Shown in pieces: positions 9,066-62,947 of a DNA stretch of 64,000 bases. Each line of letters starts with the position of its first letter. The stretch's first letter is position 1. This DNA comes from Escherichia coli. Lineage in GTDB: Bacteria; Pseudomonadota; Gammaproteobacteria; Enterobacterales; Enterobacteriaceae. The stretch lies in assembly GCF_003018255.1 (NCBI RefSeq), contig NZ_CP027440.1. The stretch is one strand, 5' to 3'. The position numbers and the translations under genes were made by a program. The notes beneath the pieces are model-generated. The model saw only the letters and a list, made by a program, of their open reading frames with translations, searched no databases and had not been told where the DNA came from.

Positions 9066-11762
9066 ATGTTTAAAGAAATTTTTACCCGGTTCATTCGCCA
9101 TTTACCTTCCCGTCTGGTTCATCGCGATCCATTGCCTGGCGCGCAGCAGACAGTGAATACGGCGGTCCCGCCGTCCTTAAGTGCGCATTGCCTGAAAATG
9201 GCGGTGATGCCCGAAGAAGAATTGTGGAAAACGTTCGACACCCATCCGGAAGGATTAAATCAGGCGGAAGTGGAATCTGCCCGCGAACAACATGGTGAAA
9301 ATAAATTACCCGCACAACAACCGTCGCCGTGGTGGGTTCATTTATGGGTCTGCTATCGCAACCCCTTTAATATTTTACTCACCATTCTCGGCGCTATTTC
9401 TTACGCCACGGAAGATTTATTTGCCGCGGGCGTTATCGCGCTAATGGTCGCTATTTCTACGTTGCTGAACTTTATTCAGGAAGCACGTTCCACTAAAGCG
9501 GCAGATGCCCTGAAAGCGATGGTCAGCAATACTGCGACGGTGCTGCGCGTAATTAACGACAAAGGCGAAAATGGCTGGCTGGAGATCCCGATCGACCAAC
9601 TGGTGCCCGGCGATATTATAAAACTGGCGGCAGGGGATATGATCCCGGCAGATTTACGTATCTTGCAGGCGCGGGATCTGTTCGTCGCTCAGGCGTCGTT
9701 AACCGGTGAGTCTCTGCCCGTGGAAAAAGCCGCTACTACTCGCCAGCCGGAGCACAGCAATCCGCTGGAGTGCGACACCCTGTGTTTTATGGGCACCACC
9801 GTGGTGAGCGGTACGGCACAAGCAATGGTGATTGCCACAGGGGCCAATACCTGGTTTGGTCAACTGGCGGGGCGTGTTAGTGAGCAGGAAAGCGAGCCGA
9901 ATGCCTTTCAGCAAGGGATTAGCCGCGTCAGTATGCTGCTGATTCGCTTTATGCTGGTGATGGCTCCGGTGGTGTTGCTTATCAACGGTTACACCAAAGG
10001 CGACTGGTGGGAAGCGGCACTGTTTGCGCTTTCGGTCGCGGTAGGCTTAACGCCAGAAATGTTGCCGATGATTGTTACCTCGACGCTGGCGCGCGGCGCA
10101 GTAAAGCTGTCGAAACAGAAAGTGATCGTCAAACATCTGGATGCCATTCAGAACTTTGGCGCAATGGATATTCTGTGCACTGATAAAACCGGCACCCTGA
10201 CGCAGGACAAAATTGTGCTGGAGAATCATACCGATATCTCCGGTAAAACCAGCGAACGCGTGCTGCATAGCGCGTGGTTGAACAGTCATTACCAGACCGG
10301 ACTTAAAAACCTGCTTGATACCGCGGTGCTCGAAGGTACGGATGAAGAGTCAGCGCGTTCGCTGGCCAGCCGTTGGCAAAAAATTGATGAGATTCCGTTT
10401 GATTTCGAGCGTCGTCGGATGTCGGTGGTAGTGGCAGAAAATACCGAACACCATCAGCTGGTTTGCAAAGGTGCATTGCAGGAAATCCTCAATGTGTGTT
10501 CGCAGGTGCGTCACAATGGCGAGATTGTGCCGCTCGATGACATCATGCTGCGTAAGATTAAGCGGGTTACTGATACGCTGAATCGTCAGGGGCTGCGCGT
10601 GGTTGCGGTGGCGACGAAATACCTGCCAGCGCGTGAAGGAGATTACCAGCGGGCGGATGAATCCGACCTGATCCTCGAAGGATATATTGCTTTCCTTGAT
10701 CCGCCAAAAGAGACAACCGCTCCGGCACTGAAGGCATTAAAAGCGAGTGGAATTACCGTAAAAATCCTTACTGGCGACAGTGAGTTAGTTGCAGCGAAAG
10801 TGTGCCATGAAGTGGGGCTGGATGCGGGAGAGGTGGTCATTGGTAGTGATATTGAAACGCTATCTGACGATGAACTGGCAAATCTCGCACAGCGCACCAC
10901 GCTGTTTGCCCGCCTGACGCCGATGCATAAAGAACGCATTGTGACCTTACTGAAGCGCGAAGGGCATGTGGTTGGCTTTATGGGCGATGGTATTAATGAT
11001 GCGCCCGCCTTACGCGCTGCGGATATCGGCATTTCTGTGGACGGCGCGGTAGATATTGCCCGTGAAGCGGCTGATATCATCCTGCTGGAAAAAAGCCTGA
11101 TGGTGCTGGAAGAGGGGGTTATTGAGGGACGTCGCACTTTCGCCAACATGCTGAAATACATCAAAATGACGGCGAGTTCTAACTTCGGTAATGTGTTCAG
11201 CGTGCTGGTGGCGAGTGCTTTCTTGCCCTTCCTGCCGATGTTGCCGTTACACTTGCTTATTCAGAACTTGCTGTACGATGTGTCACAGGTGGCGATCCCG
11301 TTTGATAACGTCGACGACGAGCAAATTCAAAAGCCGCAGCGTTGGAATCCGGCGGATCTGGGGCGCTTTATGATCTTCTTCGGACCGATCAGCTCGATCT
11401 TCGATATTCTGACGTTTTGCCTGATGTGGTGGGTATTCCATGCCAACACGCCGGAAACGCAAACGCTGTTCCAGTCGGGCTGGTTTGTGGTGGGCTTACT
11501 GTCGCAAACGCTGATTGTGCATATGATCCGTACCCGTCGTGTACCGTTTATTCAGAGCTGTGCATCGTGGCCGTTAATGATCATGACCGTGATCGTGATG
11601 ATTGTCGGGATCGCATTGCCGTTTTCACCGCTGGCCAGTTATCTGCAGCTGCAGGCGCTGCCGTTAAGCTATTTCCCGTGGCTGGTTGCGATTCTGGCAG
11701 GGTATATGACGTTAACCCAGTTGGTGAAAGGGGTCTATAGCCGTCGTTACGGCTGGCAGTAA
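9066..11762 (+). CDS. mgtA: Mg2+-importing P-type ATPase
   Basis: 898 aa; DKTGTLT phosphorylation motif and GDGINDAPAL motif present. Confidence 0.95.
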   Translation: MFKEIFTRFIRHLPSRLVHRDPLPGAQQTVNTAVPPSLSAHCLKMAVMPEEELWKTFDTHPEGLNQAEVESAREQHGENKLPAQQPSPWWVHLWVCYRNPFNILLTILGAISYATEDLFAAGVIALMVAISTLLNFIQEARSTKAADALKAMVSNTATVLRVINDKGENGWLEIPIDQLVPGDIIKLAAGDMIPADLRILQARDLFVAQASLTGESLPVEKAATTRQPEHSNPLECDTLCFMGTTVVSGTAQAMVIATGANTWFGQLAGRVSEQESEPNAFQQGISRVSMLLIRFMLVMAPVVLLINGYTKGDWWEAALFALSVAVGLTPEMLPMIVTSTLARGAVKLSKQKVIVKHLDAIQNFGAMDILCTDKTGTLTQDKIVLENHTDISGKTSERVLHSAWLNSHYQTGLKNLLDTAVLEGTDEESARSLASRWQKIDEIPFDFERRRMSVVVAENTEHHQLVCKGALQEILNVCSQVRHNGEIVPLDDIMLRKIKRVTDTLNRQGLRVVAVATKYLPAREGDYQRADESDLILEGYIAFLDPPKETTAPALKALKASGITVKILTGDSELVAAKVCHEVGLDAGEVVIGSDIETLSDDELANLAQRTTLFARLTPMHKERIVTLLKREGHVVGFMGDGINDAPALRAADIGISVDGAVDIAREAADIILLEKSLMVLEEGVIEGRRTFANMLKYIKMTASSNFGNVFSVLVASAFLPFLPMLPLHLLIQNLLYDVSQVAIPFDNVDDEQIQKPQRWNPADLGRFMIFFGPISSIFDILTFCLMWWVFHANTPETQTLFQSGWFVVGLLSQTLIVHMIRTRRVPFIQSCASWPLMIMTVIVMIVGIALPFSPLASYLQLQALPLSYFPWLVAILAGYMTLTQLVKGVYSRRYGWQ

Positions 11763-32589: not shown

Positions 32590-32674
32590 GCCGAAGTGGC
32601 GAAATCGGTAGACGCAGTTGATTCAAAATCAACCGTAGAAATACGTGCCGGTTCGAGTCCGGCCTTCGGCACCA
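32590..32674 (+). tRNA. leuX: tRNA-Leu (anticodon CAA)
   Basis: 85-nt sequence GCCGAAGTGGCGAAATCGGTAGACGCAGTTGATTCAAAATCAACC...GGTTCGAGTCCGGCCTTCGGCACCA with cloverleaf arms and encoded CCA. Confidence 0.95.
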
Positions 32675-32896
32675 AGTGATGCAATAATTAGCTACCTAAG
32701 GGTGGCTTTTTTTGTGTCCATTTCCGTCCAAATTCGTCCATATCCGTTTGTAATTCAAAGGTAATTTATTTTTCCACAATAACCATATTTATTTTGTGGT
32801 CTTTCCGTGTTGGTCATTTTTCATCCATTGACATCCACGCGATTTGGGGGCCAAATTGGGGGCTTAGACGTAGTTCGATAATAGTGAGGCCCCCAA

Positions 32897-34573
32897 ATGG
32901 CACTAACAGATCGCGCTATAGTCCACGCCAAGCCTTGTGGCAAGCCGTATAAGCTCAGTGACTCGCATGGACTTTACCTGCTGGTTAACCCTAACGGTTC
33001 AAAACGCTGGTACATCAAGTACCGCTTTGTAAACAAAGAGAAAAAGCTCGCTTTAGGCCCTTATCCGCTTTTGACGCTTGCACAGGCAAGACGCATGCGT
33101 GAAGAGGCACAATTATTGCTGATTTCCGGCATCGATCCGAGTGCACGCCGAAAAGCAGAACGCCTTGCGATAACGCCGGAACATACGTTTGAGTCTGTGG
33201 CACGTGAATGGGTCACCAGTAACGTGAACTGGTCGGCGGAACATAAGAAGCGGGTGCTGCGTTATTTCGAGCTTTACGTATTCCCCACGAACGGCAGCTG
33301 TGACATCACCAAAATGAAGGTCAAAGATCTGCTGGTGCCCATCAAGGAAGTGGAGAAAGCGGGCAAACTGGATGTTGCTTCCCGGCTTCAGCAGCGCACT
33401 GCCTGCGTGATGCGCTACGCCGTCCAGAACGGCATTATCGATCATAACCCTGCATCAGATTTAACCGGCGCGGTCTCCACGCCCAAAGTACGGCATCACC
33501 CGGCGTTGGATCTGAATCTTATCCCTGATTTCCTGGAAAGAATCGACGATTACAAAGGCCGTCAACTGACTCAACTGGCGGTAAAACTGGCACTGCTGCT
33601 GTTTATCCGCTCCAGCGAACTGCGCTTTGCCCGCTGGGATGAAATTGATCTGCGTAACGCCATGTGGACCATCCCCGCTGAGCGTGAGCCGATCCCCGGC
33701 GTTAAATATTCAGCGCGTGGGGCGAAGATGCACTCCCCACACCTGGTCCCATTGTCACGTCAGGCCATCGAACTGCTGCACGAGGTGCGGCAGCATTGCC
33801 GACCGGGAACTGAACTGGTGTTCCCCGGCGATCACAATTACCGCAAGCCGATGAGTGAAAACACCATCAACAAAGCGCTGCGGGTGATGGGCTACGACAC
33901 CCAGAAAGATGTCTGTGGCCACGGTTTTCGCACTATGGCCTGTAGCGCGCTGGTGGAGTCGGGGCTGTGGTCAAGCGACGCGGTAGAGCGCCAGATGAGC
34001 CATCAGGAGCGCAAGCGCGTGCGTGCGGCGTATATCCACAAGGCGCAGCATCTCGAAGAACGTTGGGAGATGATGCAGTGGTGGGCGGATTATCTGGATG
34101 CAAACCGGTTCAGGCATGTTGTGCCGTATGGCTTCAAAAAGTCGCCGGGAGGCGCACTCGACCATATGAGTTTCCAGGAGCGCAATGACCGGCAGCTAGA
34201 GGAGCTGAAAGCCAGAATACTGGCTGACTCGGAATGGCTGACGGCGTCTGAATTATCCGCAAAAGCGGGCTTTCGTTCCGCCGATCCTGATGCTGGTCCG
34301 AAAGGCTGGAAAGCCGCCGGGAAGATATTCTCGCTGAAGGTCGATGGTGAGGATTTATACCCTGATTATGTTCTGGATGAGAAAATGCGGCCTCTCAAGG
34401 TTGTCCGTTTGATTCTTTCACTGTTTAAGGAGCGTAAAACACCGTGGGGGCTGGCTATCTGGTTTGGCTCGGCTAATCGCAGGTTGAGAGGTGGGAGGCC
34501 GAAAGACCTGCTGATTTCGAAGTCAGAGTTGGTTCTGATGGCGGCGCAGGAGGAGGTGGAGTCGGGGGAGTAG
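32897..34573 (+). CDS. P4-type tyrosine integrase with ~150-aa C-terminal extension
   Basis: 558 aa; N-terminal arm-binding region, catalytic HGFR and Tyr (AAYIH) region at ~aa 350-375; extension ends in a GGRPKDLL-type motif. Confidence 0.85.
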   Translation: MALTDRAIVHAKPCGKPYKLSDSHGLYLLVNPNGSKRWYIKYRFVNKEKKLALGPYPLLTLAQARRMREEAQLLLISGIDPSARRKAERLAITPEHTFESVAREWVTSNVNWSAEHKKRVLRYFELYVFPTNGSCDITKMKVKDLLVPIKEVEKAGKLDVASRLQQRTACVMRYAVQNGIIDHNPASDLTGAVSTPKVRHHPALDLNLIPDFLERIDDYKGRQLTQLAVKLALLLFIRSSELRFARWDEIDLRNAMWTIPAEREPIPGVKYSARGAKMHSPHLVPLSRQAIELLHEVRQHCRPGTELVFPGDHNYRKPMSENTINKALRVMGYDTQKDVCGHGFRTMACSALVESGLWSSDAVERQMSHQERKRVRAAYIHKAQHLEERWEMMQWWADYLDANRFRHVVPYGFKKSPGGALDHMSFQERNDRQLEELKARILADSEWLTASELSAKAGFRSADPDAGPKGWKAAGKIFSLKVDGEDLYPDYVLDEKMRPLKVVRLILSLFKERKTPWGLAIWFGSANRRLRGGRPKDLLISKSELVLMAAQEEVESGE

Positions 34574-53255: not shown

Positions 53256-54203
53256 ATGAGAAAAATTCTTTTCTTCCTGCTGTTGATGATAGCCGTCCTG
53301 CCGGAGGTTCAGGCCACCTGTTCGTTCTACGGTGGTGTGACATCAGAAGTATCGGGTTACCTGAATTTCGGCAACGTGGTTATCCAGCGGGATGCACAGG
53401 TCGGCAGCACGATTGCCACTGCCATTACAGGGGCATACAACAATGGCGACGGCATTGCCGGGTGTAAGCGGGAGGCCTGGACCGCCCGCTGGGAACTGAC
53501 GCAATGGGGGACGCTGAGTGGCTATGGGAATGGTGTCTACAACACCAACCTGCCAGGGGTAGGATTACGTCTGAGTGCGGCCTCGACAGGTAAAACATTG
53601 CCCTATGAAACCAGCTACGCCTACAACGCTGGCGGCACCTGGGTATCCATTCCCGGTGATGGCATCAAGGGCGAGCTTATCAAAACCGGGGATATCACCA
53701 GCGGTACATTAACGGACGGTGTGCTGGCGCGCGCTTCGGTAGTGAATCAGTTTTATTTTGCCAACGTCACGTTGAACGGGATGAACACAGTGAAATCAGA
53801 AGCTTGTACTGTGACCACGCCCTCTGTTGATGTCCCGATGGGGGATCACGATAAAAGCGAATTCAGTGGTGCGGGATCTTCAACCGACTGGGTGAGCTTT
53901 GATATTGGTTTGAGCTGCGATGTCGGGGCGAGAATAAACGTACGTATCGATGCCACTGCGGATGCTTCCGCCGGTTCGCAAGGCGTCATGCTGATTGATA
54001 GCGGCGGGGCGTCTGGCGTGGGGATACAACTTCATTACCGCCCGGATGATGCCGCTGTCCAGTACGGTCAGGAACGGTTTTACTGGCAGTCGGTATATGG
54101 TGACGAGATCGTGCAGCTTAAGGCGCGATATTACCAGACTGCAGGCTCGATCACGCCAGGTGCGGCAAACGGTACGGCGACGTTTACGATGAGTTATAAA
54201 TAG
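53256..54203 (+). CDS. Fimbrial adhesin-like two-domain subunit (paralogue 2)
   Basis: 315 aa; C-terminal half aligns with paralogue 1 (…QLKARYYQTA…ATFT.SYK), N-terminal half diverged. Confidence 0.7.
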   Translation: MRKILFFLLLMIAVLPEVQATCSFYGGVTSEVSGYLNFGNVVIQRDAQVGSTIATAITGAYNNGDGIAGCKREAWTARWELTQWGTLSGYGNGVYNTNLPGVGLRLSAASTGKTLPYETSYAYNAGGTWVSIPGDGIKGELIKTGDITSGTLTDGVLARASVVNQFYFANVTLNGMNTVKSEACTVTTPSVDVPMGDHDKSEFSGAGSSTDWVSFDIGLSCDVGARINVRIDATADASAGSQGVMLIDSGGASGVGIQLHYRPDDAAVQYGQERFYWQSVYGDEIVQLKARYYQTAGSITPGAANGTATFTMSYK

Positions 54204-54214
54204 CGCGTAATCAT

Positions 54215-55762
54215 ATGGAATATTCTATGTCGGATATTGTCGCCGGGAACAGGATTGCTGCTCAATATTTAAGAATGTCTACCGAGCATCAGAAATATTC
54301 GCCGGAGAACCAGCGGGAATATATCGAGAAGTATGCAAAAGAACACTGTATTACCATTAAATATACCTATGACGACGCTGGCCGAAGTGGGCTGAGCCTG
54401 GATAACAGGCCTGGCCTGCGTTCGCTGTTATATGATGTTGAAAACGGAATAATAAAAGTCTCGTTAATTCTTGTTTACGATGTCAGTCGGTTTGGTCGTT
54501 TTCAGGATATTGAAGAGGCTGCTCATTACTCGTGGCTACTGAAGCGTAATGGTGTGCGCATTATTTATTGCGCGGAGCCTTTCTCGGAAGAACAGACCGA
54601 ATTGTTTATGCTGGGATTATCTTACTCCCGCTATGGCGCCGCAACTTACAGTAAAAACCTTTCACAAAAAGTTTTTCTTGGCCAGGCAAACCTCGTTCGG
54701 CGGGGTTATTATCAAGGTGGTATGCCTGGCTATGGCATTCGGAGATTATTAATTGATGAACATACTAATCCGAAAGGCATGCTTCTGCCGGGGCAAAGGA
54801 AAAGCCTGCAAACTGACAGAGTAATATTGATCCCGGGGCCCGCGGAAGAGGTGGTAATAGTCAATAAAATCTATGACATGTTTATTGATGAGGGCAAGCC
54901 TGAGTTTGTTATTGCTTCAGAACTGAACCGGAAGAACATCCCCGCCGAGAATGGGCTCCAGTGGAGCCGATGTAAAATTCATCAGATACTGACCAATGAA
55001 AAATATATTGGCAATAATGTTTATAACAGAACCTCCGGACGATTGAAGACCCGAAGTGTCAGGAATCCTCAGGATCAGTGGATCAGATGTGACGGCGCGT
55101 GGGACCCTGTGGTATCAGTAGAGAAATTTGAGGCGGCTAAAAGGATTATTGAAGCCAGGGCCGTTCAGTACAGTGATGATGAACTGCTGGATAAACTACG
55201 CCATCTGCTGAAGCTTCGTGGCAGATTATCCGGGATTGTGATTGATGAAGAGGAACTGTTTCCATCGAGCAGCATTTTTCGTTCACGGTTTGGTGGGTTA
55301 GTCAGGGCTTACACCCTTATTGGTTATCACCCGCGCCATGATTACTCTTATCTTGAAATAAAAAAGCAGATTGCAGAATGCCATCTCACTTTCATGGATA
55401 ATTTGGTGCAGGATATATACCGATATGGCGGTTGGGCAGAGATGCATCAGGATGGTTCATTATATATTAATGATGAGTTTTTTGTTTCCGCTAATCTGGT
55501 TCGCTGCCAACGTTTGTCGTCAGGTAAGCTTCGTTGGAAGATAAAATTTAATGTATCCCATTATTGTGATGTCATGATCTTTCCACGGTTGGATAGCACA
55601 AATAACTCCGTGGTTGATTACTTTATGTTTCCGGCTATTGATGTGTTGTATAACGATTTAACGCTTCATGAGAACAATGGTTTTATCCTCGAACTATATC
55701 GATTTGATGATTTGTCATGTCTGGAAAATCTTGTAAAACGAACTGGTCTGGAGAGTAAATAA
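54215..55762 (+). CDS. Large serine recombinase
   Basis: 515 aa; N-terminal resolvase catalytic motif YLRMSTEHQ; starts 11 nt after adhesin stop. Confidence 0.8.
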   Translation: MEYSMSDIVAGNRIAAQYLRMSTEHQKYSPENQREYIEKYAKEHCITIKYTYDDAGRSGLSLDNRPGLRSLLYDVENGIIKVSLILVYDVSRFGRFQDIEEAAHYSWLLKRNGVRIIYCAEPFSEEQTELFMLGLSYSRYGAATYSKNLSQKVFLGQANLVRRGYYQGGMPGYGIRRLLIDEHTNPKGMLLPGQRKSLQTDRVILIPGPAEEVVIVNKIYDMFIDEGKPEFVIASELNRKNIPAENGLQWSRCKIHQILTNEKYIGNNVYNRTSGRLKTRSVRNPQDQWIRCDGAWDPVVSVEKFEAAKRIIEARAVQYSDDELLDKLRHLLKLRGRLSGIVIDEEELFPSSSIFRSRFGGLVRAYTLIGYHPRHDYSYLEIKKQIAECHLTFMDNLVQDIYRYGGWAEMHQDGSLYINDEFFVSANLVRCQRLSSGKLRWKIKFNVSHYCDVMIFPRLDSTNNSVVDYFMFPAIDVLYNDLTLHENNGFILELYRFDDLSCLENLVKRTGLESK

Positions 55763-56649
55763 TGAAATCTTTTGATGAACAGATAGAACTTGTCGATATC
55801 AGTGATATTTATATCGCAAATCCACGGAAAAGGAATAAATTCATTCATAATGAAATAAAAGAGAACATAAAAACCATTGGTCTGAAACGGCCTGTTAGCG
55901 TGCGCCCAGTGAATAATGAAAACTATAAATATGCCCTGATTTGTGGTCAGGGACGACTTGAAGCGTATATTGAGTATGGTGAAACGAAAATTCCTGCAAT
56001 CATCAAGCAGGTTGATGAAGAGACAGCGCACCTGATGAGCCTGGCTGAAAACATCGCAAGACGTAATCCCCGGGCGGCAGAGCTAATGGAAGATATCAGA
56101 AGAATGAAGACCAGTGGCCTGACCGATCGTGAAATAGGCTTGCGGCTTGGGTATAATTCGAGTTGGGTAAATGGGGTGATCACTCTGTTGTCATCCGGAG
56201 AGAAGCATCTTTTGCGGGCATTTGAGACTGGCGATATTCCCTTGTATCTTGCTGTGGAAATATCCCGGTCAGGAGATGAGGAAACTCAGGAACTGCTGAC
56301 GGTCGCCCTGAAAGAAGGACATATCAAGGGTGGGCAAATTAATAAGATCAGGCGCATACTTGAACAACGTAAGAAAGGCGATAAAGGTACGATTAGTACG
56401 GCTTTTTTTCCTGGGAAAAAACAGAAAAAACTGACCCCGGAAGAACTGGCTAATGTCTACCAGGAAAACATTAATGAGCAAAAAGCCATTCTGCTGAAAT
56501 CCACAATGGTTAAAGAGAAAATTCTGGCAGTAAAGCAAATATTTGGTTATTTACTTAAAGATAATGATTTTGTTACATTGCTGCACAGTAATAATATCCA
56601 CGATATTCCTTCTTTACTGGATGGCAGTGATGTATCGGGGGAGAAATAA
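55762..56649 (+). CDS. ParB-like protein (ParB/Srx N-domain plus HTH)
   Basis: PVSVRPV...ICGQGRLEA...IPAIIK...ENIARRN pattern resembles ParB boxes; TAATG overlap with recombinase. Confidence 0.7.
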   Translation: MKSFDEQIELVDISDIYIANPRKRNKFIHNEIKENIKTIGLKRPVSVRPVNNENYKYALICGQGRLEAYIEYGETKIPAIIKQVDEETAHLMSLAENIARRNPRAAELMEDIRRMKTSGLTDREIGLRLGYNSSWVNGVITLLSSGEKHLLRAFETGDIPLYLAVEISRSGDEETQELLTVALKEGHIKGGQINKIRRILEQRKKGDKGTISTAFFPGKKQKKLTPEELANVYQENINEQKAILLKSTMVKEKILAVKQIFGYLLKDNDFVTLLHSNNIHDIPSLLDGSDVSGEK

Positions 56650-56650
56650 G

Positions 56651-57541
56651 ATGATTTCACAATGTTTTGACTCCCGATTTTATACCTTTAAGGTGGAATC
56701 ACTGGTGTATGCCAGAACGCTGCCGGTTAATGTTAAATTCAGTACGAAGTACAAACAAATTAAAGCCTCTGTCGATGAAATTGGGTTAATTGAACCCATT
56801 GTGGTTTATATCAATGACGCCAATGATAAAGTCATTCTGGATGGACATCTTCGCGTTGAAGTTTTGAAAGAACTCGGAATAACTACTGCTCATTGTCTGA
56901 TATCCCCTGTGGAGGATACATATTCATATAACAAACGTGTTAGTCGCCTTACCATTGTGCAGGCCCAAAACATGCTGCTTAAAGCGGTTGAATCTGGCGT
57001 TTCAGTTGAAAAACTATGCGCCGTACTGGGTGTCACGCCAGATACGCTGATTGGTAAACTGAAAATTTCTGATGGCATTGCCCCTGAAGTCATGGCGTTA
57101 CTGGCAGAAAAAAATGTACCGCAGACCATTTTCTCTGTGTTGAAAAAACTAAAGTTCTATAAGCAGATAGAAATGGTTAACACCATGATCAGTATTAATA
57201 ATTTCACCCGCAAATTTGCGATGTCGATGCTGCATGCCGTTGCCCCTGAACATCTTGTAGCGCCTAAAAAAGATGCCAGCAGAGAAACAGATATCAGAAA
57301 AAATCTCGAAAGACTGGAAAAAGAAATGGCTTCCGTTCAGGTGGAAACGCAGCATCTTCAGGATGAATATGCTGAGAATAACCTTCGGCTGGTTATCATT
57401 AAAAATCACATTGAACGTCTGCTGGCGAACGGTCAGGTACTTAACTGGCTTTATGATAACCATCAGGAGTACCTTTCTGTGCTCAAGCAAATCTCGGGGC
57501 TGGATGATTTGAATAAGCTTGGCCAGACAATTGAGGAATGA
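56651..57541 (+). CDS. ParB-like protein, second paralogue
   Basis: Start ATG 56651 with GGGGGAG RBS, 1 nt after previous stop; VILDGHLRVEVLKELG ParB/Srx-like motif. Confidence 0.6.
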   Translation: MISQCFDSRFYTFKVESLVYARTLPVNVKFSTKYKQIKASVDEIGLIEPIVVYINDANDKVILDGHLRVEVLKELGITTAHCLISPVEDTYSYNKRVSRLTIVQAQNMLLKAVESGVSVEKLCAVLGVTPDTLIGKLKISDGIAPEVMALLAEKNVPQTIFSVLKKLKFYKQIEMVNTMISINNFTRKFAMSMLHAVAPEHLVAPKKDASRETDIRKNLERLEKEMASVQVETQHLQDEYAENNLRLVIIKNHIERLLANGQVLNWLYDNHQEYLSVLKQISGLDDLNKLGQTIEE

Positions 57542-57740
57542 CACATTTTTAAAGCAAGGACTGCTGTTTTACAGATTGCCACTATGATGGGATGCACTGA
57601 GAGAGGAGGGCGTGCTGGTGGTTGACGTGATTCAACTGGTGCGGAAAATCTTGCTCAAAGGACGATGGCTTAAAATCAAGTTGCTGTTTCAAAAATGAAA
57701 AAGTAGATTTACATCCACTTTTCTTACTGAGGTAAAAATA

Positions 57741-58199
57741 GTGCATATAGATGCGGATTTCATAAGCTTGAGCACATTGGTGGCTAATCAACAAGCTGCA
57801 AAATGGGCGGGGGTTGCTGCTATTGCTGCCTGTTTGACGTTTGTTGTGACAACGATAGGTTTACTACTTGCTTGGCGGTCGTTGCATCAGTGGAAGCCTC
57901 AATACAAAGAAAACTCTAGACTTCTCCTAATCGAAGCTTTAATCGCATTTCAGAAATGTTTAATAACTATACCAAAAAATCTCGATAACGATCCCACCTA
58001 TCAAAGCCGAAAGGAATTTTTGAAGGCAAGTACTGAAGTTGAGCTAAGAGGACAAATATATCTTAAGCAACACAGCAACGAAAAATTAAAAGATGAATTA
58101 GCAAATCTCAGGAGTAAATGTGCAGAATTTGTTGGTGGTAAGGTGACTAAACCTGAACTGTCATTCATCTCAGCAATAATATTACTCATTGAAGTATAA
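57741..58199 (+). CDS. Hypothetical small membrane protein (152 aa, GTG start)
   Basis: AT-rich ORF with one predicted TM helix (AAIAACLTFVVTTIGLLLAW). Confidence 0.4.
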   Translation: MHIDADFISLSTLVANQQAAKWAGVAAIAACLTFVVTTIGLLLAWRSLHQWKPQYKENSRLLLIEALIAFQKCLITIPKNLDNDPTYQSRKEFLKASTEVELRGQIYLKQHSNEKLKDELANLRSKCAEFVGGKVTKPELSFISAIILLIEV

Positions 58200-58301
58200 T
58201 AGATTCTGGGCTAACACCAATCGGTTACCCGGTTGGGATATCGCTTCCGGGTAACCTGTGGAAAGGCAAAAGCCACTCCACAGGTTGCCCGAGCATATCG
58301 A

Positions 58302-59093
58302 TTACATGTTTGCGTCTTTATTTAACGCATATTGCCAGTTAGCTGCATCCAGCTTTCTCAGCAACGCGCAAAGCACATCCACCAGACAGGCGAGGATCCG
58401 CTGGCCTTTTTCCGCCGTGGCGCAGCGCGGATCGCCGGTTGCTCCGGTGGCGCTGATTTCCCCGATATCCCAGATCCGGTTCACGCCATAATCAGCGAAC
58501 ACCTCCACCGGGATCTGTTTCTGCGCATATTTCAGTTCCACCAGCTCCGGAATCAGCGCCATCATGACGGACGTTTCGCCCTCGCCGCCGTGTCCTAGTC
58601 CGGTGTTATCCCATGAGTCGAAAAATCCCTTCCCGAGATGATGTCCCACCAGATCCCACCACGCCGGAACCACGACAATCGCTGCCTGCGTATGTCGGGC
58701 CTTCACATTGCGGGCGGCGATTTCAATCGCCGGAATATTACCGTCATGGCCGTTAATCACCAGGATCCGGCGAATACCGTGGTGCAGCAGGCTGATGAAG
58801 ATATCTTCCGCCAGCGCGATATTGGTCTCGTAGCGTAGGGTGACCGCCAGTGGATAGGCATTGTAGTGAACGGATGTGCCGAACGGCGTGCAGGGCAGCA
58901 CAAGGGTATTATCCACCCGCTGCGCCACCCGGCAGGCGACGATTTCGGGTACAAACATATCGGGGCCGAGTGGCAGGTGATCGGCGTGGTTCTCACAACT
59001 GCCGAAGTTGACGATAGCAGTGAGTTCCTTACCAGACTGCAACAGCTCGCGGATTTCCCGGCCAGTCAGTTCATTGAGCATGACTTTTTTCAT
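58302..59093 (-). CDS. Creatininase (creatinine amidohydrolase) family protein
   Basis: Product recognised as creatininase-fold family; start MKKVMLNELTG; overlaps permease stop. Confidence 0.65.
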   Translation of the reverse strand: MKKVMLNELTGREIRELLQSGKELTAIVNFGSCENHADHLPLGPDMFVPEIVACRVAQRVDNTLVLPCTPFGTSVHYNAYPLAVTLRYETNIALAEDIFISLLHHGIRRILVINGHDGNIPAIEIAARNVKARHTQAAIVVVPAWWDLVGHHLGKGFFDSWDNTGLGHGGEGETSVMMALIPELVELKYAQKQIPVEVFADYGVNRIWDIGEISATGATGDPRCATAEKGQRILACLVDVLCALLRKLDAANWQYALNKDANM

Positions 59094-60429
59094 CGGACAG
59101 CCTCCTGTTTTTTCGGACGACAAAGATGTAGTACGCGCTGGCGAGGGCCAGCCAGATCAGGACGGTAACCAGGGTAATGCCGCCGCCGTCGGTGAAAAAT
59201 TGCCCGGCCATGATCAGCGCAATCAGCCCCACGGTGAGTGGCTGGATGTAGCGGGCGGCCGGAGCCTTGTATTTCAGCGTTCCGTCGTGCAGGGCTATTC
59301 GGTGCAGGGTGGGCTGGCTTAAGGCAATCATCAGCCAGGTGAACAGAAAGCCGAATCCGGAAATCCCGGCGAGGATGACATACGCATCTGGCGAGAGAAT
59401 GGCGATGATGACGCCGGTAAACAGCACCAGGCTGCTGGCAAGAATGGCGTTATCCGGTGTTTTATGTGCCGGGTGCAGGCGGGCAAACCAGGCCGGGAAA
59501 TAGCCGTCAGACGCCATGGCGTGCAGCATCCGCGAGGTGGCGTAAACCCCGGTATCGATGCAGGAGAGCGCGGCGGTCAGCACCACAAAGTTCATGATAT
59601 GCCGCGCCATATGGCCACCGAGAATGCCGGAAGCTTCGACATACGGGCTGCTGCTGACACCTGCCTGCTGCCAGGGGAGAACGAGCAGCAGAACGGTCAA
59701 TGAGCCGACATACAGCAACAGGATCCGCACCACGGTGCCACGCAGCGTACGAGGAATATCACGCTGTGGGTTCTCGCTTTCACCCGCGGCGGTGCCGATG
59801 GCCTCTGTCCCGCCGAAAGAGAAAATCACCATTAACATCGCGCCGAGAAATCCGGGCAGCCCGCCAGCAAAAAAGCTGCCGCTGTCGGTCGGATGACTGA
59901 TGCTGGCGGGTGAGGCGTTATCCAGTCCCAGGCTGTAGCAGCCCGCGACGATAAAGGCCAGCAGCGCCACGACTTTCACCAGGCTCAGCCAGAACTCCAC
60001 TTCACCGAAAAAATGAACGCCGACCATGTTGATGGCAGTCAGCGACGAAGCGATCACCAGGCAAAACAGCCAGACGGGGACTCCGGGAAACCACAGGTTC
60101 AGGAAGGTGCCTGCAGCGATGGCCTCCGACGCCGGGCCAATCAGGAAGGCCAGCCAGTAGGTCCACCCGGTGATAAAGCCACACCATGGGCCAAAGGCGG
60201 TGCGGGCATAGGATTCAAAGGAACCGGAGACGGGCCTGGCGACCGCCATTTCGGCAAGCAACAGCATAATGAACAGGGTGATGACACCGCCGATAAGGTA
60301 GGCCAGCACCACCGACGGCCCGGTACGGGCAATGGCCGCGCCTGCGCCGAGGAAAAATCCGGCACCAATCACGCCTCCCACGGAAATCATCGTCAGGTGA
60401 CGGGCTTTCAGACTTCTGTTGAGTTCCAT
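59071..60429 (-). CDS. APC-family amino acid permease
   Basis: 452 aa multi-TM protein, start MELNRSLKARHLTMISVGGVIGAGFF. Confidence 0.8.
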   Translation of the reverse strand: MELNRSLKARHLTMISVGGVIGAGFFLGAGAAIARTGPSVVLAYLIGGVITLFIMLLLAEMAVARPVSGSFESYARTAFGPWCGFITGWTYWLAFLIGPASEAIAAGTFLNLWFPGVPVWLFCLVIASSLTAINMVGVHFFGEVEFWLSLVKVVALLAFIVAGCYSLGLDNASPASISHPTDSGSFFAGGLPGFLGAMLMVIFSFGGTEAIGTAAGESENPQRDIPRTLRGTVVRILLLYVGSLTVLLLVLPWQQAGVSSSPYVEASGILGGHMARHIMNFVVLTAALSCIDTGVYATSRMLHAMASDGYFPAWFARLHPAHKTPDNAILASSLVLFTGVIIAILSPDAYVILAGISGFGFLFTWLMIALSQPTLHRIALHDGTLKYKAPAARYIQPLTVGLIALIMAGQFFTDGGGITLVTVLIWLALASAYYIFVVRKNRRLSDEKSHAQ

Positions 60430-60472
60430 AATGTCTTCTCTTTTGTTGTTGTGGATGGATTCAAGGCAGCGC

Positions 60473-60847
60473 TTATGGCCGTCCCTCCTCAATCAGCAGT
60501 TCACCGTACAGGTCGTGAAGTTTAGGGATTGGGCCGGAGAGATGAACGGCTCCCGAATGGCAGGCATTCAGGCTGCCGTTAAACACCATGGTCAGGTGGC
60601 CAAGTTCAAACAAAGACTGCTGTGCCTCTTTACCCACGGCGGTCACCAGGTAGTCATGGCTCGCCAGCAGCAGCCGATCGCCGGGCAGGATCAGCAGGTC
60701 GTCTTCGCGGAATGAGGGTTCCAGCGACAGGGAATAGTCCAGGCAGTCTTTCGGTCCGTTGCTGTCAAAGGTGATAAGCGTCCTGTCTGCCAGTCCGTCG
60801 GCGACAAACAGCCCGATAGCAACGATGCGTGCGCAGTAGGTCATCAT
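60473..60847 (-). CDS. Hypothetical protein (124 aa), first gene of permease/creatininase operon
   Basis: ORF immediately upstream of permease on same strand. Confidence 0.4.
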   Translation of the reverse strand: MMTYCARIVAIGLFVADGLADRTLITFDSNGPKDCLDYSLSLEPSFREDDLLILPGDRLLLASHDYLVTAVGKEAQQSLFELGHLTMVFNGSLNACHSGAVHLSGPIPKLHDLYGELLIEEGRP

Positions 60848-61065
60848 GGCTCGTTCTCCCGTTTGTCGGGCATGAGAGTACGGCCTGGTGTAGGTGAGCA
60901 GGCATGTAGCCTGAATAGGTGAATAAAGCCTTCAGTCCGGGAGGCCGGGTGAAGGTGGCCTCCGGTTGTAAGAGCGATGGAGCAAGGGTGTGGTTCGGTG
61001 TGCATAAACAACTCTCCTGTCAGGTGTCGTTGATTAATGCGTCCTGCCACTCACAGCGCGGGTCG

Positions 61066-61341
61066 TTATGTCCCGGAGTTTTCTGTTGTTGTCATGAGGT
61101 GAAGCGGTTTACGGGGTTCACGTTTATTTCCCGTATTGAGGTAACGTTCCGGCCAGATTTCTGACGGATGCTTTCCCAGCGCAATGGCAATCAGCCACTC
61201 ACCTTTCGGCCACGGTCGGTTCAGGGCATTCGCCAGCGTTGACGAGGCCAGTCCCGCTTCCCGCGAGAGTTTCGCCAGACTGGTGCCGCGCTTGTGTAAG
61301 GCGGCAATGATATCGGCGGGGTGCCAGTCTTTTTTAGTCAT
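61066..61341 (-). CDS. Nlp/Ner-family DNA-binding protein
   Basis: WHPADIIAALHKRGTSLAKLSREAGLASSTLANALNRPWPKGEWLIA resembles E. coli Nlp and phage Mu Ner. Confidence 0.75.
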   Translation of the reverse strand: MTKKDWHPADIIAALHKRGTSLAKLSREAGLASSTLANALNRPWPKGEWLIAIALGKHPSEIWPERYLNTGNKREPRKPLHLMTTTENSGT

Positions 61342-61448
61342 TCCGTTTACCTCTATTGTTGACTATGAGTCACGAATGTATGCTAGCACGCTTTTTATGT
61401 GACTCATAGTCCGTGGACTGATAATCAACGAAGATTGATGCTGGCTAG

Positions 61449-61712
61449 ATGGAAAAGACGGGATCAATCAAAAAGGTACTGGGTAAAAGAATCAGGGCTC
61501 TACGCCGTGAGATGGACCTATCCCAGGAAGCTTTAGCCGACAAATGCGGTATCGATCGCACCTATATGAGTGGAATTGAGCGAGGAGTAAGGAACCCCAC
61601 GCTTGTTGTCATTTGTGCAATCTCGGACGGTCTGGGGATGGATCTTAGCCATTTATTTATGTTTGACGATGGCGCAGAAAAGGACGCCGAATCAACGAAG
61701 TGTGACTCATAG
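61449..61712 (+). CDS. XRE-family HTH regulator (paralogue A)
   Basis: 87 aa; HTH segment LSQEALADKCGIDRTYMSGIERGVRNPT. Confidence 0.7.
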   Translation: MEKTGSIKKVLGKRIRALRREMDLSQEALADKCGIDRTYMSGIERGVRNPTLVVICAISDGLGMDLSHLFMFDDGAEKDAESTKCDS

Positions 61713-61751
61713 TCCGTGGTCTGATAGACAACGTAAGTTCATTTTATCTGG

Positions 61752-61976
61752 ATGAAAAATACATCCAGTATTCAGGCGCAGTTTGGCGCACATCTCAAAA
61801 AACTCAGACTCCAGTCGGGCCTGTCTCAGGAAGCATTCGCGGATAAGTGTGGTCTCGATCGTACTTATGTGAGCGGTATTGAGCGGGGAGTAAGGAATCC
61901 AACCCTTGAGGTGATAAGTGTTTTAGGAAAAGGGTTGGACATGGACATCAAAGAATTATTCAACTTTGAAAGATAG
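61752..61976 (+). CDS. XRE-family HTH regulator (paralogue B)
   Basis: 74 aa; near-identical HTH segment LSQEAFADKCGLDRTYVSGIERGVRNPT. Confidence 0.7.
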   Translation: MKNTSSIQAQFGAHLKKLRLQSGLSQEAFADKCGLDRTYVSGIERGVRNPTLEVISVLGKGLDMDIKELFNFER

Positions 61977-61978
61977 GT

Positions 61979-62923
61979 TTATCTATTAGTAGCAACTCTA
62001 TCCGCAGCAGTACGGGTAACTTGATTTCCAACATCCCAGCCGTTTTCATCTGGGAGTGACATCCCATCCATTGGCATTAGGATAAAACCACCAATAGTTG
62101 GTCCAAATGACTCAGTAGTGTTAATTCCTGCATAGCTTGTTCTGATAATATTTTCATTCAAATTGGTCAAAAATGATATTCGAGTACCAAGTGGGTGCGC
62201 GGTTACCATTTGGATGTATCCACCAATAGTATTGACTGTTTCTTGGTTAATCCAATTATTCAAAGCAATAAACGGGGTACGCCACCAATTTATTGTGTTA
62301 GGAGTAAATTGTTGCCTGGTATTCTCTATAAACTCATTAAGTTCATGCAAGTTATCACCTAATAAAACAGGTCTGCCTGTTGATAAATTTTGAATATCTT
62401 CAATCTGGAGGTTGGCTGGGTGCTCAATAGAGTTATTGAGTTTTATAATTTTGTAGGTTTGTGTTCTCCAGCAAAAACCAAAAATTATCATCTGTATTCT
62501 TACTGCTTGGGGAAAGGATTGGCCGATATCAGACATATATTGCTCGGCAATATTTTTTGCTAATGAAGCTATTTCATTAAGACTTGGGAATGCTTCGGTC
62601 GATATTTGTTGTTCTGGATTATTGTTCGCAATCTCATGAAGTCTTGCTAATGATACTGCAAGCATTTCTTTGACATTAATTCCAATCATTGTACTTCCTG
62701 CAAATCCGAAGCCAAATTCGAATATTTTTTGCGGGTGAATTCGATAAACGTCCGAAGAGCGAATAACTGATACGGGGATTGAGAATAATTTCGGACAATG
62801 GTCAGTTAGTCTGCTATTTTGCTGAGTGATTCTTGAGTCGCTGACTGCCCAAATACTATCGCTTTCCTCTCTATTAAACCAACATGCAATTGCGGTCATA
62901 AGGTTTTTCCAGTTATTTAACAT
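61979..62923 (-). CDS. Hypothetical protein (314 aa), AT-rich
   Basis: Long ORF in low-GC DNA convergent with the XRE pair; no recognised motif. Confidence 0.5.
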   Translation of the reverse strand: MLNNWKNLMTAIACWFNREESDSIWAVSDSRITQQNSRLTDHCPKLFSIPVSVIRSSDVYRIHPQKIFEFGFGFAGSTMIGINVKEMLAVSLARLHEIANNNPEQQISTEAFPSLNEIASLAKNIAEQYMSDIGQSFPQAVRIQMIIFGFCWRTQTYKIIKLNNSIEHPANLQIEDIQNLSTGRPVLLGDNLHELNEFIENTRQQFTPNTINWWRTPFIALNNWINQETVNTIGGYIQMVTAHPLGTRISFLTNLNENIIRTSYAGINTTESFGPTIGGFILMPMDGMSLPDENGWDVGNQVTRTAADRVATNR

Positions 62924-62947
62924 TAATGCGAATAGCTTAGCATATTT

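What the first reader, a model, noticed from the sequence alone, without database searches (positions are those of the whole stretch)
54204..58199. Large serine recombinase translationally coupled to two tandem ParB-like genes, inserted 11 bp after the fimbrial adhesin gene
The serine recombinase (catalytic motif YLRMSTEHQ) starts only 11 nt after the last fimbrial gene and lacks an intervening terminator. Its stop overlaps the start of ParB-like gene 1 (TAATG), which is followed 1 nt later by a second ParB-like gene. Both carry degenerate ParB/Srx boxes (GQGRLEA instead of GERRxRA; DGHLRVEVL). No ParA ATPase is present, so this is not a standard partition locus. Three tightly coupled genes in AT-rich DNA suggest a dedicated functional unit: the recombinase end of a separate integrated element, or a maintenance/conflict module. 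A small membrane protein gene follows (57741-58199).
Basis: partly seen in the sequence, partly recalled or inferred. Interest (0 to 1): 0.7.

Follow-up and report, generated by a model that had tools for sequence, protein, structure and literature searches.

The report
Conserved recombinase plus two-ParB operon
A tightly coupled three-gene operon (an unusual serine recombinase followed by two different ParB-type DNA-binding proteins) sits as cargo in a leuX conjugative element of E. coli; the same operon recurs in mobile DNA of hundreds of bacterial species, and I found no description or known function for it.

Summary
ORFs at 54215-55762 (serine recombinase), 55762-56649 (ParB1) and 56651-57541 (ParB2) follow the fimbrial adhesin stop by 11 nt. 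They are joined by a TAATG overlap and a 1-nt gap. No ParA lies within about 12 kb.

The three genes form a real unit. In loci from 80 other species the order SR-ParB1-ParB2 is kept in nearly every locus long enough to show it. A genome scan gave 480 confirmed stretches encoding ParB2 relatives in a one-genome-per-species collection. dN/dS against the Salmonella copy is 0.03-0.05 for all three genes.

The recombinase keeps its catalytic Ser and Arg residues. It lacks the zinc-ribbon/coiled-coil domain of large serine recombinases and has an unmatched C-terminal domain instead. ParB1 keeps CTP-pocket-like motifs. ParB2 keeps only a DGHLR box.

In the window the trio fills a variable cargo slot of a leuX ICE, which holds a methyltransferase gene in one relative. 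Elsewhere it usually lies next to the integrase of tRNA or guaA islands, often beside defence genes. The small ORF at 57741-58199 is not part of the module.

PADLOC, Rfam and the literature searches gave no match. My best reading, held weakly, is a ParB-assisted site-specific recombination module serving the mobile element. Defence and self-mobility remain open. In 29 alphaproteobacterial loci a new structured RNA follows ParB2.

The parts
54215..55762 (+). Serine recombinase of 515 aa (511 aa if started at 54227). It has an N-terminal resolvase catalytic domain and a recombinase domain. There is no zinc-ribbon/coiled-coil domain. The last ~195 residues are a family-specific helical linker plus a beta-rich domain.
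55762..56649 (+). ParB1, 295 aa: a canonical-type ParB with N-domain, HTH and C-terminal region. It is translationally coupled to the SR by the TAATG overlap.
   Evidence: Pfam gives ParB_N at 2.2e-11 and RepB at 7.2e-13. TIGR00180 parB_part scores above its cut-off. PDB sequence hits are Spo0J, Noc, ParB and KorB. The family conserves GL.P, CG.GR.E and EN..R motifs. dN/dS is 0.036.
56651..57541 (+). ParB2, 296 aa: a divergent ParB-fold protein. The DGHLR.E box is nearly invariant, there is no EN..R box, and a long C-terminal helix follows. It starts 1 nt after the ParB1 stop.
   Evidence: Pfam gives RepB at 1.5e-23 and a weak ParB_N at 2e-3. phrog_31451 matches at 5e-72. There is no PDB sequence hit. 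The AF2 model (pLDDT 79) matches CTP-bound ParB, Noc and KorB by Foldseek at E 1e-9. D64, G65 and R68 are invariant in 51 homologues. dN/dS is 0.025.
54204..54214 (.). Left junction of the variable cargo slot: 11 nt between the fimbrial adhesin stop and the SR start codon.
   Evidence: Three ICE variants are identical up to the fimbrial stop codon and diverge immediately after it.
57542..58335 (+). Variable segment after the trio, not part of the conserved module. It holds the small TM-helix ORF (57741 or 57780 to 58199). Homology to the other ICE variants resumes at about 58335, inside the 3' end of the creatininase gene on the - strand.
   Evidence: Identity to the four other E. coli copies stops at the ParB2 stop codon. 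A PaiB-like gene or a SAM methyltransferase gene occupies this place in relatives. The RNA fold of 57542-57745 is not significant, z = +0.95. The ORF's only family hit is phrog_6169, of unknown function, and it has no PADLOC hit.

Best explanation
The block is a self-contained three-protein site-specific recombination module that belongs to mobile elements. In this window it is carried as cargo of a leuX integrative conjugative element.

Shown: a catalytically intact serine recombinase, two different ParB-fold DNA-binding proteins, strict co-inheritance, translational coupling and purifying selection.

Inferred mechanism: the recombinase lacks the zinc-ribbon/coiled-coil domain that ordinary large serine recombinases use to read att sites and to set direction. 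The two ParB paralogues would supply that function. They would act as a hetero-oligomer, with ParB1 plausibly a CTP-gated clamp and ParB2 a non-canonical partner. They would bind a specific site on the element, recruit or license the recombinase through its family-specific C-terminal domain, and so control where and when strands are exchanged.

Inferred biological role: upkeep of the host element, for example resolving dimers, tandem arrays or cointegrates, or stabilising or regulating the excised or integrated form. Chromosome-style partition is not proposed. In the E. coli copy the operon has no upstream region of its own, so it is probably transcribed by read-through from the phase-variable fimbrial operon.
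For: - Strict SR-ParB1-ParB2 order, with overlapping or abutting ORFs, in nearly all of about 90 loci from alpha-, beta- and gammaproteobacteria. A scan of a one-genome-per-species collection gave 480 confirmed stretches encoding relatives.
- dN/dS of 0.025-0.047 at saturated dS for all three genes.
- Catalytic R20, S22, D89, R92 and R95 are invariant. No Zn-ribbon Pfam hit, and a conserved novel C-terminal region.
- ParB1 resembles Spo0J, Noc and KorB and keeps GxGR and EN..R. The ParB2 model matches CTP-bound ParB, Noc and KorB. The two are distant paralogues, 29% identical over 62 aa of the N-domain.
- Position next to the integrase. Trio loci in several alphaproteobacterial genera share guaA - int - AlpA-like gene - regulator - trio, followed by variable cargo. 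Enterobacterial islands have tRNA - int - trio, or trio next to int. This is what a backbone function would look like.
- The trio lies adjacent to tniQ/tniB/tniA modules in 4 loci, at the place where Tn5053-type transposons carry their resolvase.
Against: - No recombination site has been found. There are no att- or res-like repeats around the trio in the window. No inverted repeat or palindrome is conserved between the E. coli and Salmonella ICE copies.
- In the window the trio sits in a variable cargo slot, not in the ICE backbone.
- Its neighbours are often known defence systems: Septu, ZacABC and AbiE.
- The ParB-recombinase interaction, CTP binding and any recombination activity are all inferred, none tested.
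- An integrase-proximal position is also typical of cargo hotspots.
Confidence: 0.35

Rival explanations
1. It is an anti-phage or anti-plasmid defence or exclusion system. The ParB-like proteins would load on or mark incoming DNA, and the recombinase, possibly with a nuclease-like C-terminal domain, would break or scramble it.
For: - Patchy distribution: 6 of 5426 complete E. coli genomes.
- It is carried on MGEs and in variable slots, next to Septu PtuAB (Salmonella), ZacABC (alphaproteobacteria), AbiE with a DUF3686/AAA_5 protein (Proteus), and RES or HNH genes in sister ICEs.
- Two divergent trios occur in one genome, Erwinia sp. S63 (L040 and L047).
- A divergently transcribed HTH regulator accompanies it in the alpha clade.
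Against: - None of the three proteins has a defence-specific PADLOC 2.0 hit; ParB2's only match is a ParB_N-type stretch of a methyltransferase model.
- In the alpha-clade islands the trio is the constant part and the defence genes are the variable part.
- No sensor or effector domain typical of defence systems was found.
- I know of no precedent for a serine recombinase acting as a defence effector.
- The PD-(D/E)xK resemblance is not localised and no canonical motif is present.
Confidence: 0.25
2. The trio is itself a small mobile element. The serine recombinase would be its integrase or transposase, and the ParB-like proteins would serve target choice or regulation. Such an element would parasitise other mobile elements (ICEs, islands, plasmids, transposons).
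For: - Base composition is foreign to its surroundings.
- Boundaries are very sharp, 11 nt before the start codon and at the ParB2 stop codon.
- It occurs in many unrelated MGE contexts.
- Many draft assemblies break contigs at the trio, and several 3.4-6 kb contigs hold nothing else.
- Decayed integrase fragments flank it in several Enterobacterales.
Against: - No terminal or flanking repeats, and no empty-site/filled-site pair, were found.
- Within the ICE lineage the trio stays at the same place from E. coli to Salmonella, at about 80% nucleotide identity. That means vertical descent with the ICE, not recent hopping.
- The apparent multi-copy signal in Sinorhizobium pSymA is only a solo ParB2-like gene repeat.
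- The E. coli copy has almost no non-coding DNA at its left end.
Confidence: 0.17
3. The two ParB-like proteins are KorB/VirB-type transcriptional regulators or anti-silencers for the surrounding AT-rich cargo, for example the fimbrial operon. The recombinase would provide a phase-variation switch.
For: - ParB-fold proteins without a ParA partner are known regulators (KorB, VirB). The ParB1 sequence and the ParB2 model match KorB structures among others.
- In the ICE lineage the trio always follows a fimbrial operon that has its own tyrosine invertase.
- In one island family it follows pilV.
Against: - In most loci there is no adhesin operon nearby.
- No invertible segment or inverted repeats were found.
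- This reading does not explain the strict coupling with a recombinase.
Confidence: 0.08
4. It is a decaying remnant of a plasmid partition or resolution region, with no current function.
For: There is no ParA, no own promoter region in the E. coli copy, and the block lies in a cargo slot.
Against: - All three ORFs are intact in E. coli, Klebsiella and Salmonella copies.
- dN/dS is 0.025-0.047 at saturated dS.
- The same three genes are kept together in distant phyla.
Confidence: 0.03

Closest known systems
Large serine recombinases (phage integrases such as PhiC31, Bxb1, A118 and SprA of SPbeta; TnpX; CcrB)
   Same: The N-terminal catalytic domain has the Ser nucleophile and conserved Arg residues, and a 'Recombinase' domain follows. 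The size is about 500 aa and the gene sits on a mobile element.
   Different: There is no zinc-ribbon domain with coiled coil; a family-specific helical plus beta-rich C-terminal region takes its place. The gene is always followed by two ParB-like genes rather than partnered with a separate small directionality factor. No att sites were identified.
ParABS partition systems and the repABC RepB protein
   Same: ParB1 has the ParB N-domain + HTH + C-terminal architecture, with box I, II and III-like motifs. Both proteins match Pfam RepB.
   Different: There is no ParA/RepA ATPase and no RepC. Two different ParB paralogues lie in tandem. ParB2 lacks box III. No parS was found. The genes are coupled to a recombinase.
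ParA-independent ParB-fold proteins: KorB (RK2), Noc, VirB
   Same: These are ParB-fold DNA-binding proteins that work without segregation. Structural and sequence matches include KorB and Noc.
   Different: KorB works with KorA as a repressor and Noc binds membrane. None is encoded as a pair downstream of a serine recombinase.
Resolution modules that combine a serine resolvase with accessory genes: RP4 parCBA, and TniR/res of Tn5053/Tn402 (from my own knowledge of these systems)
   Same: These are operons on mobile elements in which a serine recombinase acts in element upkeep. In four related loci the trio lies directly beside tniQ-tniB-tniA.
   Different: Those resolvases are small and act at a res site with accessory subsites. 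RP4 ParB is a nuclease of a different fold. No tni genes or res site accompany the trio in the window.

Membership tests
Large serine recombinase (LSR) | Resolvase-type catalytic domain with Ser nucleophile and conserved Arg residues | tested here: met
Large serine recombinase (LSR) | Recombinase domain (PF07508) after helix E | tested here: met
   PF07508 at 3.5e-23 over residues 211-315. The model aligns with SprA over 262 residues.
Large serine recombinase (LSR) | Zinc-ribbon domain with embedded coiled coil (PF13408) | tested here: not met
   No PF13408 hit, whereas a neighbouring LSR in L019 has one. The C-terminal alignment shows one nearly invariant Cys and no CxxC pairs. A profile of the C-terminal 195 aa has no Pfam or PDB match.
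Large serine recombinase (LSR) | Defined attP/attB or attL/attR sites flanking the mobilised DNA | tested here: inconclusive
   No flanking repeats were seen and no empty site was available. LSR sites are short and need not be repeated, so absence is not proven.
ParABS / repABC partition locus | ParB-type centromere-binding protein (ParB_N + HTH + dimerisation region) | tested here: met
   ParB1 scores 61.1 bits on TIGR00180, above the 58.45 cut-off. Pfam gives ParB_N + RepB.
ParABS / repABC partition locus | Adjacent ParA/RepA Walker ATPase (and RepC for repABC) | tested here: not met
   None is annotated within about 12 kb in the identical record, and none lies next to the trio in the related loci whose annotated contexts were read.
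ParABS / repABC partition locus | parS palindromes near the operon | tested here: inconclusive
   No palindrome or inverted repeat is conserved between the E. coli and Salmonella copies. Sites could lie elsewhere on the element.
CTP-dependent ParB clamp | Box II GERRxR and box III ENLQR nucleotide-pocket motifs | tested here: inconclusive
   ParB1 has G-Q-G-R-L-E-A and A-E-N-I-A-R-R, and the family conserves G.GR and EN..R. ParB2 has only D-G-H-L-R-.-E and no EN..R. CTP binding cannot be tested here.
Known anti-phage defence systems (PADLOC-DB 2.0) | Match of the component proteins to a defence-system model | tested here: not met
   The SR and ParB1 have no hit. ParB2 matches only a ParB_N-like stretch of a type II methyltransferase model, at 6e-7.
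Tn5053/Tn402 tni module (TniR resolvase) | Serine resolvase adjacent to tniA-tniB-tniQ with a res site | tested here: not met
   No tni genes lie near the trio in the window or its ICE. Adjacency is seen in only 4 related loci.

The most novel reading that the evidence does not exclude
The trio would be a previously unrecognised class of recombination machine. A serine recombinase that has lost its own site-reading domain would be targeted and gated by a heteromeric ParB-type (CTP-switch) clamp. In one large clade it would also work with a dedicated structured RNA encoded directly after ParB2. It would act either as a new mobility or maintenance mechanism of genomic islands, or as a new kind of DNA-targeting immune system.
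Probability: 0.2. Interest if true: 0.9.

Novelty: new variant of a known kind. Interest (0 to 1): 0.62.

Why it matters
Large serine recombinases are prized genome-engineering tools, and ParB CTPase clamps are a fast-moving field. An operon that hard-wires the two together, conserved in hundreds of species, has not been described in anything I could find.

If the ParB pair really targets or gates the recombinase, that would be a new way of controlling site-specific recombination. It could also explain how a family of tRNA and guaA genomic islands, which often carry defence systems, is maintained or moved. If the trio is instead a defence system, it would add a new mechanism.

Either way the module is small (3.3 kb), intact in E. 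coli and directly testable. The associated RNA motif in alphaproteobacteria is a separate new candidate non-coding RNA.

Tried and rejected
1. att or res repeats at the block's borders. Alignment of three ICE variants shows only a variable slot, with no duplicated sequence. The repeat scan of 53200-58500 gave only short matches of the chance kind. The inverted repeats it did report, including a 19-nt pair around ParB1, are not conserved in the Salmonella copy.

2. Known defence system. PADLOC gave no hits.

3. Known RNA. Rfam gave nothing in the window 53-59 kb or in the alpha-clade element.

4. Homologue of the alpha-clade RNA in the window or in gamma/beta loci. The covariance model R1 finds none. 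The fold of 57542-57745 is not significant. The beta/Pseudomonas clade has no conserved 3' structure.

5. Multi-copy mobile trio in Sinorhizobium pSymA. The repeat is only a ~0.9 kb solo ParB2-like gene without the SR or ParB1.

6. GIsul2 resG as the same module. The paper mentions no ParB, and no enterobacterial plasmid has a ParB2 homologue.

7. Literature. Seven searches, including the protein accession numbers, found nothing on this trio. The library is incomplete, so this is not proof of absence.

8. Pseudogene or remnant idea. Rejected by dN/dS.

9. Insertion of the trio into an integrase gene. The integrase fragments flanking it in Serratia, Kosakonia, Enterobacter and Morganella do not fit a simple split-gene pattern. 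This is left unexplained.


Full report
**1. Observation**

- The fimbrial adhesin gene (53256-54203) ends with TAG at 54201-54203.
- Eleven nucleotides later an ATG at 54215 opens a 515-codon ORF containing YLRMSTEHQ. PGAP starts it at 54227.
- Its TAA at 55760-55762 overlaps the ATG of a 295-codon ORF (TAATG).
- That ORF's TAA at 56647-56649 is followed, one base later, by the ATG (56651) of a 296-codon ORF ending at 57541.
- A 152-codon ORF with one hydrophobic helix lies at 57741-58199.

GC drops from 0.54-0.61 in the 500-nt windows over the fimbrial genes to 0.36-0.48 in the block. No terminator-like site on the + strand separates the fimbrial gene from the recombinase gene, and no promoter-like site lies just upstream of it.

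**2. What the proteins are**

ORF1 is a serine recombinase.
- Pfam gives Resolvase (4.5e-20) plus Recombinase (3.5e-23), but no zinc-ribbon family.
- Its best named relatives are CcrB, CcrC and phage integrases, all far below family cut-offs.
- In an alignment of 49 homologues the catalytic residues R20, S22, D89, R92 and R95 are invariant.
- The last ~195 residues form a conserved, family-specific region: the motif LSG.IIDE...PSS...RFG, then a beta-rich domain with invariant N, RW, R, N and D. It matches nothing in Pfam or PDB by sequence.

ORF2 (ParB1) is a canonical-type ParB.
- Pfam gives ParB_N + RepB, and TIGR00180 scores above its cut-off.
- PDB sequence hits are Spo0J, Noc, ParB and KorB.
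- The family conserves box I, box II (G.GR) and box III (EN..R) equivalents.

ORF3 (ParB2) is divergent.
- Pfam gives RepB at 1.5e-23 and only a weak ParB_N match. There is no PDB sequence hit.
- D-G-H-L-R-.-E is nearly invariant, and no EN..R box is present.
- Its AF2 model (pLDDT 79) still matches CTP-bound ParB, Noc and KorB.

The two ParBs are only distant paralogues, 29% identical over 62 residues.

**3. Context in the window**

The window is part of an integrative conjugative element of the ICEclc/PFGI-1 type. TIGR037xx 'integrating conjugative element' genes lie on both sides. The element is integrated at tRNA-Leu(CAA) at 32590-32674, with a P4-type integrase match at 32840-34141.

Only 6 of 5426 complete E. 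coli genomes carry the block. Two are 100% identical over the whole query. Four are 99.4% identical only up to the ParB2 stop. In those four, and in a Klebsiella copy, a PaiB-like FMN-binding regulator gene replaces the small ORF.

A seventh E. coli ICE has the same fimbrial and creatininase genes. It carries a class I SAM methyltransferase gene in place of the trio plus fourth gene. Alignment shows the variants identical up to the fimbrial stop codon, and again from about 58335 inside the creatininase gene.

The trio therefore occupies a variable cargo slot. No duplicated or att-like sequence marks its borders. A Salmonella ICE has the trio in the same place at about 80% nucleotide identity. 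It has therefore travelled with this ICE lineage for a long time.

Between the E. coli and Salmonella copies, dN/dS is 0.047 for the SR, 0.036 for ParB1 and 0.025 for ParB2, at saturated dS. All three are functional genes.

**4. The trio elsewhere**

ParB2 homologues are common in Enterobacterales. They reach plasmids of Agrobacterium, Sphingobium and Piscinibacter, among others, at 34-40% identity.

A scan of one genome per species (100,044 species) gave 480 confirmed stretches encoding relatives; 80 loci were fetched. A profile search of 1.84 billion representative proteins found 456 clusters at E <= 1e-30.

In nearly every locus with enough sequence, the order SR-ParB1-ParB2 is kept with overlapping or abutting ORFs. 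This also holds in a 7.4-kb contig from human faeces deposited as a phage sequence.

Clustering of neighbouring ORFs shows two recurrent companions.
- A P4-type tyrosine integrase occurs in 23 loci.
- In alphaproteobacterial and related loci, a divergently transcribed ~209-aa HTH protein occurs in 32 loci.

Typical layouts are as follows.
- guaA - int - AlpA-like gene - regulator - trio - variable cargo, in several alphaproteobacterial genera.
- tRNA-Phe or tRNA-Arg - int - trio, in Serratia, Kosakonia and Pantoea.
- Trio next to a convergent int at tRNA-Asn, in the Salmonella/Pluralibacter island family.

The variable cargo after the trio often holds known defence systems: Septu PtuAB, ZacABC and AbiE. 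In four loci the trio abuts tniQ-tniB-tniA transposition modules.

In several Enterobacterales, a decayed 3' fragment of another integrase gene lies 110-220 nt after ParB2 in the same orientation. In Serratia a further C-terminal fragment also lies upstream. I could not turn this into a clean insertion model.

**5. An unexpected RNA**

In 29 loci, nearly all from alphaproteobacteria, a ~130-nt core starts 3-24 nt after the ParB2 stop, followed by variable hairpins and a GC-rich terminator-like stem. The core is 85-95% identical between loci whose upstream regions are only about 70-73% identical.

RNAalifold predicts six helices. On the core alignment 99% of cells pair, 8 pairs show double compensatory changes, and 0 of 500 shuffles reach the observed values. 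Slid controls collapse. The G-U wobbles fit only the operon strand.

A covariance model finds the element only on the + strand, directly after ParB2, and nowhere in gamma or beta loci or in the window. Rfam has no match.

The Salmonella island clade instead has a conserved 20-bp hairpin containing G-U pairs right after the stop. The window's own downstream region shows no significant fold.

The RNA is therefore clade-specific and is not part of the E. coli locus. It does show that the operon can have a dedicated RNA partner.

**6. Interpretation**

What is shown:
- a conserved, selected, translationally coupled operon;
- a catalytically intact but domain-truncated large-serine-type recombinase;
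- two non-identical ParB-fold proteins;
- residence on mobile elements, usually beside the integrase;
- no ParA, no parS and no recombination site yet identified.

I favour a ParB-assisted recombination module that serves the element (confidence 0.35). Such a role could be resolution of dimers, tandem arrays or cointegrates, or control of the excised or integrated state. The ParB pair would replace the missing site-reading and direction-setting domain of the recombinase. The main support is the constant integrase-proximal position with variable cargo beyond it.

A defence or exclusion role (0.25) fits the patchy distribution and the defence-rich neighbourhoods. It has no direct support: there is no PADLOC hit and no recognisable effector.

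A self-mobile mini-element (0.17) fits the sharp borders and foreign composition. Against it, no ends or empty sites were found, and the ICE copies are vertically inherited. The apparent multi-copy signal in Sinorhizobium proved to be a solo ParB2-like gene.

A regulator plus phase switch (0.08) and a dead remnant (0.03) are unlikely.

**7. Known or new**

No description of this trio was found in seven literature searches, nor in PADLOC, NCBIfam or Rfam. PGAP names the genes generically.

The components belong to well-known superfamilies. I therefore class it as a new variant of a known kind, a serine-recombinase module with unprecedented ParB-type partners, rather than as categorically new.

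Its interpretation is partly supported:
- Right: a dedicated unit, not a partition locus.
- Wrong: the 'end of a separate integrated element', and the inclusion of the small ORF.

Noticed in passing
L099:10895-11026 (also L016:7900-8031, L061:10897-11028, L089:4486-4617 and 25 more loci); not in the window: A new structured RNA candidate of about 132 nt with six helices lies directly after the ParB2 stop in 29 trio loci, nearly all alphaproteobacterial. It is much more conserved than the upstream flanking DNA, shows compensatory changes and strand-specific G-U pairs, and has no Rfam match.
   Followed up: yes
L005:10907-10950 (and the equivalent sites in L031, L032, L033, L035): In the Salmonella/Pluralibacter/Raoultella island clade, a conserved 20-bp hairpin containing G-U pairs (CUAUGAACAAUGCAUU...AGUGUGUUGUUCAUAG) starts about 16 nt after the ParB2 stop. 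It is unrelated in sequence to the alpha-clade RNA.
   Followed up: partly
window 32590-34141 and 45000-64000: The window lies in an ICEclc/PFGI-1-type integrative conjugative element inserted at leuX (tRNA-Leu CAA at 32590-32674, P4-type integrase match at 32840-34141). Its cargo region, set between conjugation gene blocks, holds a FimB-like tyrosine invertase gene followed by a chaperone-usher fimbrial operon with two adhesin-like genes.
   Followed up: partly
window 61400-62950 (ORF 61979-62923 on the - strand, GC 0.37-0.46): A second variable, AT-rich cargo slot lies next to two small Xre-type HTH genes. Here it holds a 314-aa hypothetical protein with no PADLOC hit. Sister ICEs carry a RES-domain NAD+ phosphorylase or an HNH endonuclease at the same place, together with a truncated conjugative ATPase gene in the E. 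coli C11-type ICEs.
   Followed up: partly
L009:6936-7073 and 11056-11567; L043:11114-11581; L048:3051-3257; L030:5397-5600: Decayed 3' fragments of P4-type integrase genes lie 110-220 nt downstream of the trio in the same orientation, in four enterobacterial genera. In Serratia a ~125-nt direct repeat (77% identical), derived from integrase C-terminal coding sequence, brackets the trio. The origin is unexplained; tandem island accretion or targeting of int genes are both possible.
   Followed up: partly
L107:12416-13376 and L108:13856-14778 (Sinorhizobium meliloti Rm41 pSymA): A solo ParB2-like (RepB-type) gene of about 0.9 kb is repeated 3-6 times per pSymA megaplasmid at about 94% identity, partly frameshifted, without the recombinase or ParB1.
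   Followed up: partly
L018:4040-4786 (E. coli O152:H23, NZ_CP062901.1): The class I SAM methyltransferase gene that fills the trio's slot in a sister ICE has a partial match to the PADLOC 'mad2' model of the MADS defence candidate (E 3e-13). This hints that the slot exchanges conflict-type genes.
   Followed up: no
L014:1-6087 and L015:7906-11485: In Piscinibacter and Agrobacterium plasmids the trio lies directly beside tniA-tniB-tniQ (Tn5053/Tn7-like) modules. In Piscinibacter it sits 93 bp downstream of tniQ, where such transposons normally carry their resolvase.
   Followed up: partly
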